A stretch of DNA of 64,000 nucleotides from Escherichia phage EC.P1. Of the stretch, positions 58,499 to 59,241 are shown piece after piece. The DNA is taken from the sequence record PQ657772.1; one strand, given 5' to 3'. Made by a program: the position numbers and the translations under genes. Position 1 is the stretch's first letter, and every line of letters starts with the position of its first letter. The notes beneath the pieces were generated by a model. That model searched no databases. It had not been told where the DNA came from and worked only from the letters and a program-made list of their open reading frames with translations.

Positions 58499-58757
58499 AT
58501 AATCTCCTAGTGAAAAAAGCCAGATTCTTTCTTATATATTCGGCGACACAATCAGTAGTTTGTGTATTTGTGAATGCAACAACTTCATTCGATACACCAT
58601 TCCCATTACACAATGGACAAATCCCCATATACTTAGGTGTTGGAACTGTATCTAGTTTATATTTCCCTGAAGATATCATGTATTGTTGTGGTAATACATC
58701 CAAAGAAATAATATAATCTTCATCGAATTGCTTACAACATACCCAACATTTACTCAT
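58479..58757 (-). CDS. small Cys-rich (zinc-binding-like) protein
   Basis: 92 aa; CWVCC...CPLC. Confidence 0.5.
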   Translation of the reverse strand: MSKCWVCCKQFDEDYIISLDVLPQQYMISSGKYKLDTVPTPKYMGICPLCNGNGVSNEVVAFTNTQTTDCVAEYIRKNLAFFTRRLYERENL

Positions 58758-59241
58758 TGTGGTTCTCCTTCAAAACAATTCTTATATCTTCGAATGTTTT
58801 AACAAACCAGTCATGTTCATCAGATACATCAACCACCTTCCCACCATAAACATAGTAATGATAGAAGGGTAACTTACTTTTCCTCAATCGTTCAGCAAGT
58901 TCTGGGTTTTGAAATATCTTAGCACATATTGCATCCTGGATACGAGAAATGCATTCGGGTGTCATTTCAATACGGTCGTGCATATACTTGTTCGCCGCTG
59001 CTTTTGCAGCAGCACCCGACACTTTTCTAAGATCATCATGTTTCTGGCCTGTTAAAAACCAAAAATAAAAAGTTTCTACCGATGGGAACCAACCATATGG
59101 TTCTAAGGTAAAACTATGTGAAGAAAAGTTAGATAGATCCCTACCTAACTTAGTCTTAGCTTTACTATAGATATTAATATGTCTGTATCCATCATCAGTA
59201 GGGTCAATATAGTTAAATGACTCTTCAGGAAATTCAAACAT
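58750..59241 (-). CDS. NADAR (YbiA-like) domain protein
   Basis: 163 aa; colinear by eye with E. coli YbiA: INIYS..G..LSNF, S.AAAKAA, A.CAKIFQNPELAERL. Confidence 0.6.
   Translation of the reverse strand: MFEFPEESFNYIDPTDDGYRHINIYSKAKTKLGRDLSNFSSHSFTLEPYGWFPSVETFYFWFLTGQKHDDLRKVSGAAAKAAANKYMHDRIEMTPECISRIQDAICAKIFQNPELAERLRKSKLPFYHYYVYGGKVVDVSDEHDWFVKTFEDIRIVLKENHNE

What the first reader, a model, noticed from the sequence alone, without database searches (positions are those of the whole stretch)
58750..59241. NADAR (YbiA-like) gene: possible counter-defence enzyme
The product aligns by eye with E. coli YbiA over its length. As far as I recall, NADAR-family enzymes have been reported to hydrolyse ADP-ribose from modified guanine bases, which would reverse DNA ADP-ribosylation by DarT-type toxins; in a phage accessory region that suggests anti-defence use.
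Basis: partly seen in the sequence, partly recalled or inferred. Interest (0 to 1): 0.55.

Follow-up and report, generated by a model that had tools for sequence, protein, structure and literature searches.

The report
Divergent phage NADAR-fold gene, lysine-less
This jumbo-phage gene encodes a real but very divergent relative of the NADAR enzymes that strip ADP-ribose from DNA bases; relatives in other phages use them to beat a bacterial defence, but this one lacks some usual substrate-binding residues, so its target is still open.

Summary
The ORF at 58750..59241 (minus strand, 163 aa) is real. It is gene g438 of Escherichia phage fEgEco12, a 121Q/Rak2-like jumbo phage.

Homology to NADAR:
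- Sequence searches with the single protein fail. Pfam NADAR gives no hit at E<=10, and BLASTP against YbiA and T4 gp30.3 is not significant.
- hhalign gives 97.7% probability to the T4 gp30.3/AdfN family over nearly the full length, and 95.9% to the YbiA family.

The protein belongs to a large clade that is rare in cellular genomes (2098 cluster representatives). Members are often fused to SLOG, DUF4326/DUF488-N3a or Macro domains.

Active site:
- Kept: the LSNF motif, the catalytic Glu (E56) and the "phage-type" His (H128).
- Lost: the phosphate-binding Lys is absent clade-wide. This subclade has also lost the Arg and Trp that contact the pyrophosphate. The protein is acidic.

A 99%-identical ortholog (QAY00367.1) was already cited as a jumbo-phage NADAR in 2021. 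Phage NADARs that counter DarTG1 (AdfN) were shown in 2025.

Verdict: NADAR identity confirmed; an anti-DarT role is plausible but unproven. This is a new member of a known kind.

The parts
58750..59241 (-). CDS of 163 aa plus stop: stand-alone divergent NADAR-fold protein (fEgEco12 g438).
59125..59136 (-). Codons for L36-S37-N38-F39, the NADAR 'LSNF' substrate-cleft motif.
   Evidence: At least 94% conserved in 82 family members. Aligned to ALSNF of T4 gp30.3 and FSNF of YbiA.
59074..59076 (-). Codon GAA for E56, the conserved NADAR glutamate. It corresponds to T4 AdfN E36, YbiA E48, PnNADAR E43 and EcC7 E88.
   Evidence: Invariant in 82/82 members. Alignments. Role described in PMC11543638.
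59053..59055 (-). Codon TTA for L63, the position of the canonical phosphate-binding Lys at Glu+7 (T4 K43, YbiA K55, Pn K50, EcC7 K95). The Lys is absent.
   Evidence: hhalign mapping. The column reads L32, S12, G12, A6 and others, with no K or R among the residues listed.
59002..59004 (-). Codon AAA for K80, the invariant Lys of the 'G..AK..G' helix shared with the AdfN consensus and with PnNADAR 'AKKLGR'.
   Evidence: Invariant in 82/82 members. Aligned to the AK of the AdfN consensus and of 8BAU. Equivalence to EcC7 K115 and SCO5665 K117 is inferred from spacing only.
58852..58860 (-). Codons for H128-Y129-Y130. H128 sits immediately before the predicted strand 129-132, the first of the two C-terminal strands, at the position of the His that defines 'phage NADARs' (Glu in YbiA, Asp in DarG1).
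   Evidence: H128 is invariant in 82/82 members and aligns to T4 gp30.3 H123. The model has a strand at 129-132. The signature is described in PMC11125620 and PMC11543638.
60774..60794 (-). Terminator-like hairpin upstream of the gene block that holds the NADAR gene (context only).
   Evidence: Consensus scan only.
58118..58276 (-). Tandem duplicated cassette with two consensus sigma-70 promoters, downstream of the block g435-g440 (context only).

Best explanation
The gene encodes a genuine but highly divergent NADAR-superfamily (YbiA-fold) protein. It is a stand-alone member of a large clade that is mostly viral and rare in cellular genomes. That clade is a sister group to T4 gp30.3/AdfN and shares its 'Glu plus His' active-site signature.

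The most likely mechanism is as follows (inferred, not shown). The LSNF cleft binds an ADP-ribosyl N-glycoside. E56 positions the distal ribose, and H128 takes the role of the last-strand catalytic acid. The N-glycosidic bond is hydrolysed and ADP-ribose is released. This would serve as a counter-defence during infection.

The leading specific target is guanine-N2-ADP-ribose placed on phage DNA by DarT1-type toxins, making this an AdfN-like 'orphan antitoxin'.

Shown here: the ORF, its conservation, the fold, homology to AdfN and YbiA, and which active-site residues are kept or lost. Inferred: catalysis, the substrate and the anti-defence role.

For: Homology:
- hhalign gives 97.7% probability (E 1.5e-12) to the gp30.3/AdfN family across residues 22-156.
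- hhalign gives 95.9% to the YbiA family.
- Both are comparable to the accepted AdfN-YbiA link, which scores 97.5%.
- The family profile hits 8BAU and 2B3W.

Active site: LSNF, E56, K80 and H128 are invariant or nearly so. H128 aligns to T4 H123.

Precedent:
- Every NADAR clade tested so far removes G-ADPr in vitro (PMC11125620 and PMC12945103).
- AdfN from T4, Bas32 and Bas60 rescue phages from DarTG1 (PMC11825919).
- adfN is conditionally essential on DarTG1 hosts (bioRxiv 2025.11.20.689424).

Context: the family is present in 502 of 50,697 phage records but in only 13 loci among 185,579 species genomes. The gene sits in a long same-strand array of small accessory genes in an E. coli phage. 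Macro-NADAR fusions in the family would fit a dual anti-DarT2/DarT1 enzyme.
Against: - There is no Lys at Glu+7 anywhere in the family. The equivalent K95 is needed for G-ADPr hydrolysis in EcC7 NADAR.
- In this subclade the equivalents of Arg79 and Trp89, which contact the pyrophosphate, are also lost: N84 and I91.
- The protein is acidic (pI 5.98, net charge -4), whereas AdfN-T4 has pI 8.97 and the AdfN family median is 9.5.
- No DarT or other ART family was listed next to family members, though only 25 of 58 matched families are shown.
- The dominant fusions are to SLOG and DUF4326/DUF488-N3a. The group that first called this protein a NADAR predicted soluble ADPr-derivative substrates.
- No experiment exists on any member of this clade.
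Confidence: 0.4

Rival explanations
1. Same fold and chemistry but a different substrate. The protein would hydrolyse soluble, low-molecular-weight ADP-ribose-derived molecules made by host defence systems, such as immune signals or toxic metabolites like cADPR variants or ADPr-phosphates. It would act in a pathway with SLOG, Macro and DUF4326-type phosphatase modules rather than on DNA adducts.
For: Of 91 multidomain family members, 27 carry DUF4326, 21 YAcAr-SLOG, 11 DprA-like SLOG, 6 Macro and 6 DUF488-N3a. DUF488-N3a also recurs as a neighbour.

This is the architecture syndrome for which Iyer et al. predict soluble ADPr-derivative processing. They cite QAY00367.1, which is 162/163 identical to this protein, as their jumbo-phage NADAR example.

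The acidic pI and the lost phosphate contacts argue against a standard DNA-ADPr site.
Against: - No NADAR has yet been shown to act on such signals.
- All biochemically tested NADARs act on base-linked ADPr.
- Loss of pyrophosphate ligands would also weaken binding of soluble ADPr derivatives.
- This particular protein is not fused to any partner, and its neighbours are uninformative.
Confidence: 0.3
2. A non-catalytic NADAR. The protein would bind ADP-ribose, or an ADP-ribosylated host effector, and inhibit a defence system stoichiometrically. This is what was reported for a phage NADAR that inhibits Retron-Eco1.
For: [quoted passage not shown] From memory, that protein (U56) binds ADPr.

The canonical Lys, Arg and Trp are lost here.
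Against: - E56 and H128 are invariant across 82 diverse members, and across fused and stand-alone forms. This is more typical of catalysis.
- Frequent fusions to other enzymatic domains suggest a multi-step enzymatic pathway.
- I could not place U56 in this family. No NADAR-like ORF was found in the first 50 kb of T5, and the source phage of U56 was not verified.
Confidence: 0.12
3. A housekeeping N-glycosidase in phage nucleotide or DNA-modification metabolism. This would be analogous to YbiA acting on riboflavin intermediates and would be unrelated to host defence.
For: - In Ackermannviridae the homolog sits next to a MazG-like pyrophosphatase and topoisomerase II.
- In Vibrio phages it sits next to NrdD/NrdG, an exonuclease and dCMP deaminase.
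- Neighbours in cellular-genome loci include ribonucleotide reductase and thymidine kinase.
- YbiA's characterised role is metabolic.
Against: - The neighbourhoods are not conserved between phage groups.
- The family is closer to AdfN than to YbiA and has the phage-type His.
- Truncated alleles in some phages suggest an accessory rather than a core function.
Confidence: 0.1
4. Not a NADAR at all; the LSNF...E resemblance is chance.
For: No Pfam or NCBIfam hit. Pairwise BLASTP is not significant.
Against: - Two independent profile-profile matches exceed 95% probability.
- Reciprocal profile-to-sequence hits were found in small, pre-selected family sets.
- This ORF is the top hit of both the AdfN and YbiA profiles among 380 ORFs in the window.
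Confidence: 0.02

Closest known systems
T4 gp30.3 = AdfN (anti-DarT factor NADAR; Pfam PF08010 Phage_30_3)
   Same: - Small stand-alone phage protein made of the NADAR core only.
- Nearly full-length profile-profile match (97.7%, E 1.5e-12).
- Shares the LSNF motif, the Glu (E56 / E36) and the clade-defining His (H128 / H123).
- Sits among small accessory genes of a large myovirus.
   Different: - Not a PF08010 member. This protein has no hit, and the best relative scores 20.4 bits against a cut-off of 36.
- K43 of AdfN is Leu here, and the 'GR' Arg is Asn here.
- Acidic rather than basic.
- Has an extra N-terminal conserved motif, D-G-x-x-H-I-N-I-Y-S-K.
- Its family is frequently fused to SLOG, DUF4326 or Macro domains.
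- Anti-DarTG1 activity has not been tested.
E. coli YbiA (PDB 2B3W; Pfam PF08719 NADAR, YbiA subfamily)
   Same: - Shares 'INxYS...(F/L)SNF...SxE' and the 'AKF/AKI' helix.
   Different: - 16-19% identity; pairwise BLASTP is not significant.
- YbiA has K55, R79, W89, E125, D130 and W133. Here these are L63, N84, I91 and H128, and the C-terminal D..WG.GG loop is replaced by a beta-hairpin followed by a helix that starts at W145.
- YbiA is a bacterial enzyme of riboflavin-intermediate metabolism.
DarG1 / DarT1-associated NADAR antitoxins (BC4488 family; PDB 8BAT; E. coli C7 NADAR) and PnNADAR (8BAU)
   Different: - No N-terminal DNA-binding extension.
- His instead of Asp171 / Glu125.
- No equivalent of K95 / K50.
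- No ART family was listed among neighbours of family members in cellular genomes, and the Pfam/PHROG scans of this gene's neighbours were uninformative.
Jumbo-phage and giant-virus SLOG-Macro-NADAR-DUF4326 multidomain proteins (Iyer, Burroughs, Anantharaman, Aravind 2021/2022)
   Same: The domain in this protein is the NADAR module of those architectures. A 99%-identical ortholog, QAY00367.1, is their cited NADAR example.
   Different: This protein is the stand-alone form, with no partner domain fused and none recognisable among its neighbours.

Membership tests
NADAR superfamily (YbiA-like fold) | [quoted passage not shown] | tested here: met
   [not shown]
NADAR superfamily (YbiA-like fold) | Match to Pfam PF08719 (NADAR/DUF1768) above threshold. 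| tested here: not met
   No hit at E<=10 for this protein. Only 4 of 29 relatives give sub-threshold hits, best E 0.024.
NADAR superfamily (YbiA-like fold) | Statistically supported sequence homology to bona fide NADARs. | tested here: met
   The family profile against PDB gives 8BAU E 2e-4 and 2B3W E 7e-4. hhalign to the YbiA family gives 95.9%, E 5.8e-9.
NADAR superfamily (YbiA-like fold) | (L/F)SNF motif and the conserved Glu at the start of the first core helix (Pn E43, EcC7 E88). | tested here: met
   S37, N38 and F39 are at least 94% conserved and E56 is invariant (82/82).
NADAR superfamily (YbiA-like fold) | Phosphate-coordinating Lys seven residues after the Glu (Pn K50, EcC7 K95, T4 K43). 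| tested here: not met
   The position is L63. Listed residues in 82 members are L32, S12, G12, A6, with no K or R.
NADAR superfamily (YbiA-like fold) | Charged or catalytic residue in the last strand: Glu in YbiA, Asp in DarG1, His in phage NADARs. | tested here: met
   H128 is invariant, lies immediately before the predicted strand 129-132 (the first of two C-terminal strands) and aligns to T4 H123. This is the phage-type state.
NADAR superfamily (YbiA-like fold) | Pyrophosphate contacts equivalent to Pn R79 and W89. | tested here: not met
   N84 and I91 in this protein and its Rak2/Asteriusvirus subclade. R84 together with D90-W91 is kept in many other family members.
NADAR superfamily (YbiA-like fold) | Guanine-ADP-ribose glycohydrolase activity. 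| not testable with these tools
   Needs biochemistry.
gp30.3 / AdfN family (Pfam PF08010) | Match to PF08010 above the gathering score. | tested here: not met
   No hit for this protein. 8 of 29 relatives give weak hits, best E 4.9e-4; one such hit scores 20.4 bits against a cut-off of 36. All 120 listed homologs of T4 gp30.3 carry PF08010.
gp30.3 / AdfN family (Pfam PF08010) | His replacing the last-strand Glu, plus the E36/K43 pair. | tested here: inconclusive
   The His and the Glu are present; the Lys is absent. hhalign at 97.7% supports a sister-family relationship rather than membership.
gp30.3 / AdfN family (Pfam PF08010) | Rescues phage replication from DarTG1. | not testable with these tools
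   Needs plaque assays.
DarG1 antitoxin (DarTG1 toxin-antitoxin) | Encoded next to a DarT1 ADP-ribosyltransferase; basic N-terminal extension on the NADAR core. | tested here: not met
   - Only seven genes on the two sides of this ORF, plus two further upstream, were scanned; Pfam and PHROG matches there were uninformative. The rest of the window was not scanned for ART families.
- No ART family appears among the 25 best of 58 Pfam families matched by 95 neighbour ORFs of 13 genomic loci.
- The protein is 163 aa, core only, with residues 1-9 disordered.

The most novel reading that the evidence does not exclude
The Lys-less, His-type clade, and especially this acidic Rak2/Asteriusvirus subclade that has also lost the Arg and Trp pyrophosphate contacts, may have moved to a substrate or mode of action not yet known for NADARs. 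One possibility is a ribosyl N-glycoside other than base-linked ADP-ribose, for example a host immune signal or a modified nucleotide. Another is a non-catalytic decoy for ADP-ribosylated defence effectors. Family-specific conserved residues (D17, H21, K27, R34) would then build a new binding site.
Probability: 0.25. Interest if true: 0.6.

Novelty: new member of a known kind. Interest (0 to 1): 0.35.

Why it matters
If this clade removes ADP-ribose from DNA, then anti-DarT 'orphan antitoxins' are far more widespread in large phages than current Pfam-based annotation shows. The clade occurs in Ackermannviridae, Rak2/121Q-like phages, and Erwinia, Ralstonia and Vibrio jumbo phages, and it has about 2100 cluster representatives, none of the sampled ones recognised above threshold by PF08719 or PF08010.

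If it does not, the clade marks a second activity of the NADAR fold in virus-host NAD+/ADP-ribose conflicts.

Either way, the Glu/His-but-no-Lys site is a natural test of which residues NADAR catalysis really needs. The practical gain is modest: a better annotation for a gene that the public records sampled here call 'hypothetical protein', and a clear, cheap experiment.

Tried and rejected
- **Single-sequence library scans.** Pfam, NCBIfam and PADLOC gave nothing. PHROGs gave only families of unknown function, phrog_652 and phrog_11222.
- **Pairwise BLASTP.** Comparisons with YbiA and with T4 gp30.3 were not significant.
- **phmmer of the single protein against PDB.** It gave only a spurious carboxylesterase hit.
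- **Genomic partner search.**
  - Pfam and PHROG scans of the flanking genes were uninformative.
  - Neighbourhoods in Dickeya, Erwinia, Vibrio and Pectobacterium phages are not conserved beyond Rak2-like synteny.
  - Thirteen cellular-genome loci showed no DarT or ART among the listed families, only a recurrent DUF488-N3a.
- **Second NADAR in the window.** None was found among 380 ORFs.
- **Link to the non-enzymatic Retron-Eco1 inhibitor NADAR.** The paper is not held, and no NADAR-like ORF lies in the first 50 kb of T5, so this is unresolved.
- **de Souza & Aravind 2012** (original NADAR definition) and the supplements of the key papers: not held.
- **Not done.**
  - The other ~310 kb of the phage genome was not scanned for further NADAR or Macro genes.

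Full report
**1. The observation**

The window holds an ATG-to-stop ORF at 58750..59241 on the minus strand, encoding 163 aa.
- tblastn shows the window comes from Escherichia phage fEgEco12 (PP777464.1, 375 kb, 100% identity). This is a 121Q/Rak2-like jumbo myovirus, and the ORF is CDS g438, 'hypothetical protein'.
- The gene is tightly packed. The upstream ORF ends 2 nt before its ATG, and the downstream ORF (58479..58757) overlaps its 3' end by 8 nt.
- It lies in a same-strand array of well over a hundred small, mostly unannotated genes.
- 502 phage records hold a homolog.

The ORF is therefore a real, conserved gene at exactly the stated coordinates.

**2. Is it a NADAR?**

- hmmscan of the protein against Pfam (including PF08719 NADAR and PF08010 Phage_30_3) returns nothing even at E<=10. 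NCBIfam and PADLOC also return nothing.
- BLASTP against E. coli YbiA is not significant (E 0.63-0.92, 19% identity over 102 residues).
- BLASTP against T4 gp30.3 finds no alignment.

So 'aligns by eye over its length' amounts to recognising the DLSNF...SVE motif. Deeper methods, however, agree with each other.
- A profile of 29 homologs (A1) hits the PDB sequences of PnNADAR 8BAU (E 2e-4) and YbiA 2B3W (E 7e-4).
- With larger alignments (82 family members, 108 gp30.3/AdfN homologs, 111 YbiA homologs), hhalign gives:
  - 97.7% probability (E 1.5e-12) to the AdfN family, over query residues 22-156 and template residues 4-151;
  - 95.9% (E 5.8e-9) to the YbiA family, over residues 20-122.
- The accepted AdfN-YbiA relationship scores 97.5% in the same set-up.
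- An AlphaFold2 model built on A1 is confident (pLDDT 90, pTM 0.83).
- Foldseek gives the same top three. In BFVD it finds family members first and then annotated NADAR proteins of giant viruses.

The NADAR-fold assignment is secure; I put it at about 0.97.

**3. What kind of NADAR?**

The family is large. The profile finds 2098 cluster representatives (clusters at 50% identity) at E<=1e-3, and 1656 at E<=1e-10.

It is rare in cellular genomes. Only 13 loci were found among 185,579 species genomes, mostly in phage-like gene arrays. By contrast, 502 phage records hold it, spanning Rak2/121Q-like phages, Ackermannviridae, and Erwinia, Ralstonia, Xanthomonas and Vibrio large phages.

None of the 29 first homologs carries a precomputed NADAR or gp30.3 Pfam domain. 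In contrast, all 120 listed homologs of gp30.3 carry PF08010. It is therefore a distinct clade.

Of the 146 best representatives newly returned by the search, 91 are longer than 195 aa. Their extra domains are:

| Fused domain | Members (of 91) |
|---|---|
| DUF4326 | 27 |
| YAcAr-type SLOG | 21 |
| DprA-like SLOG | 11 |
| Macro | 6 |
| DUF488-N3a | 6 |
| Canonical NADAR | 1 |
| Metallophosphatase | 1 |

DUF488-N3a also recurs as a neighbouring gene. This is the SLOG/Macro/NADAR/DUF4326 syndrome that Iyer et al. described for jumbo phages and giant viruses.

The 90%-identity cluster of the window protein contains QAY00367.1, which is 162/163 identical. Iyer et al. 2021 cite this accession as their example of a jumbo-phage NADAR domain. 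The NADAR identity of this very protein is therefore already in the literature, although the database names listed for it and its close relatives read 'hypothetical protein' or 'uncharacterized protein'.

**4. The active site**

Schuller et al. 2023 list the ADPr contacts in PnNADAR:
- E43 and E125 hold the distal ribose.
- K50, R79, W89, R93, W133 and D130 (water-mediated) hold the pyrophosphate.
- In E. coli C7 NADAR the catalytically relevant residues are E88, K95 and D171.
- The last-strand residue is Glu in the YbiA subfamily, Asp in DarG1 and His in phage NADARs.

The alignments, combined with the column statistics, give this mapping:

| Canonical position | This protein | Conservation in the family |
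|---|---|---|
| LSNF motif | L36-F39 | at least 94% conserved |
| Glu (Pn E43, T4 E36) | E56 | invariant, 82/82 |
| Lys at Glu+7 (Pn K50, T4 K43, EcC7 K95) | L63 | L, S, G or A are the common residues; no K or R listed |
| Lys of the 'AK..G' helix | K80 | invariant; shared with the AdfN consensus and 8BAU |
| Arg (Pn R79) | N84 | basic in 56/82, lost in this subclade |
| Trp (Pn W89) | I91 | W in only 23/82 |
| Last-strand residue (Pn E125, T4 H123) | H128 | invariant; lies just before predicted strand 129-132 |

R84 and D90-W91 co-occur in the less derived members. Both are lost together in the Rak2/Asteriusvirus subclade to which this protein belongs.

Family-specific conserved residues are D17, G18, H21, N23, Y25, S26, K27, T30 and R34. 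They form an N-terminal motif, 'DGxxHINIYSKxxTxLGR'. It could supply replacement phosphate ligands (K27, R34), but that is inference, because the model coordinates could not be inspected.

The protein is acidic (pI 5.98, net charge -4). AdfN-T4 has pI 8.97 and the AdfN family median is 9.5.

**5. Function**

What is known about related enzymes:
- Every NADAR clade tested so far removes ADP-ribose from guanine in DNA or RNA in vitro.
- T4 gp30.3 (AdfN) and the unrelated phage NADARs of Bas32 and Bas60 rescue phages from DarTG1.
- adfN is conditionally essential on DarTG1 hosts.

The present clade is the closest relative of AdfN that I could identify. It shares AdfN's His signature, is mostly viral, and here sits in an accessory region of a coliphage. 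An AdfN-like DNA de-ADP-ribosylase is therefore the single most likely specific function.

Several points count against it:
- The Lys is missing. The equivalent K95 is needed for efficient hydrolysis in EcC7 NADAR, although AdfN-T4 K43A still gave partial rescue.
- The Arg and Trp pyrophosphate contacts are missing in this subclade.
- The protein carries a net negative charge.
- No ART family was listed among neighbours of family members in cellular genomes.
- The fusion partners led the Aravind group to predict soluble ADPr-derived substrates.

A third possibility is a non-catalytic ADPr binder, as reported for a phage NADAR that inhibits Retron-Eco1. It is cited (reference 37); the details are from memory, and I could not connect that protein to this family.

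My estimates are:

| Proposed role | Probability |
|---|---|
| Anti-DarT1-type DNA de-ADP-ribosylation | about 0.4 |
| Processing of soluble ADPr derivatives | about 0.3 |
| Non-catalytic binder | about 0.12 |
| Metabolic N-glycosidase | about 0.1 |

**6. Context**

Immediate neighbours are proteins of unknown function. The upstream block (peptidase, large membrane protein, LemA-like protein) is syntenic with Pectobacterium phage CBB. Elsewhere the neighbourhood differs:
- a MazG-like pyrophosphatase and topoisomerase II in Ackermannviridae;
- NrdD/NrdG and an exonuclease in Vibrio phages;
- a fused 293-aa form next to a 'putative phosphatase' in Erwinia phage Special G.

A terminator-like hairpin (60794-60774) and a tandem pair of consensus sigma-70 promoters (58254-58148) bracket the six-gene block g435-g440 that contains the gene. 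These are consensus matches only.

**7. Verdict**

In detail: this is a NADAR-fold gene at the stated place. It rests on good precedent but is untested, and the active site departs from the enzymes that set the precedent.

Novelty is limited. The fold assignment for this protein was published in 2021, and phage NADAR counter-defence in 2024-2025. What is new here:
- the definition of the clade as a Pfam-invisible sister of gp30.3/AdfN;
- its size and its fusion spectrum;
- the clade-wide loss of the canonical Lys, with further losses in this subclade.

Interest score: 0.35.

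Noticed in passing
window 58118-58276 (minus strand): Tandem duplication of two copies, 78 bp apart and 97% identical. Each copy carries a consensus sigma-70 promoter: TTGACA-17-TATAAT (12/12) at 58176-58148 and TGGACA-17-TATAAT (11/12) at 58254-58226. There are only these two copies in the window, against 0 expected by chance. It looks like a strong host-type (early) promoter cassette for the genes from about 58024 downward.
   Followed up: partly
window 58021-58227 (minus strand; fEgEco12 g441): The small ORF here contains the peptide 'LLLSLTVPQG' twice. This is simply the duplicated promoter cassette read in frame. The annotated gene is probably spurious, at least in part.
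   Followed up: partly
window 60774-60794: A 9-bp-stem hairpin followed by a T run on the minus strand (the scan also lists it on the plus strand, without a T run), between the LemA-like gene (60803..61357) and the next gene (60168..60755). It may mark the start of the transcription unit that holds the NADAR-like gene.
   Followed up: no
window 58479-58757 (minus strand; fEgEco12 g439): A 92-aa Cys-rich protein (CWVCC ... CPLC) that overlaps the NADAR gene's 3' end by 8 nt. GenBank annotates it as 'DNA primase/helicase', but it matches only PHROG 35738 (unknown function) and no Pfam family. The annotation looks like an over-call from a zinc-ribbon resemblance.
   Followed up: partly
relatives: cluster members P0428 (71 aa, E. 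coli phage G17), P0433 (119 aa) and P0437/P0438 (108 aa, Dickeya phages), against 162-163 aa for full-length forms: Several phages carry truncated alleles of this gene. This recalls the frameshifted, inactive adfN of RB69 and suggests the gene is dispensable and lost in some lineages.
   Followed up: no
L006 3974-4855 (Erwinia phage Special G gp155); proteins P0018-P0173: Most close family representatives are multidomain, with the NADAR-like module fused to DUF4326, YAcAr/DprA-like SLOG, Macro or DUF488-N3a domains. One protein also has a canonical PF08719 NADAR match. The family is not captured above threshold by any Pfam model and would merit its own entry in the NADAR clan.
   Followed up: partly
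window ~61354-64000 and L001 2877-6439: Upstream lies a conserved block: a 'toxic anion resistance' (TerD-like) protein, a peptidase, a 364-aa membrane protein and a LemA-like protein annotated as a virion structural protein. The peptidase, membrane-protein and LemA-like genes have positional counterparts in Pectobacterium phage CBB and GAP32.
   Followed up: no
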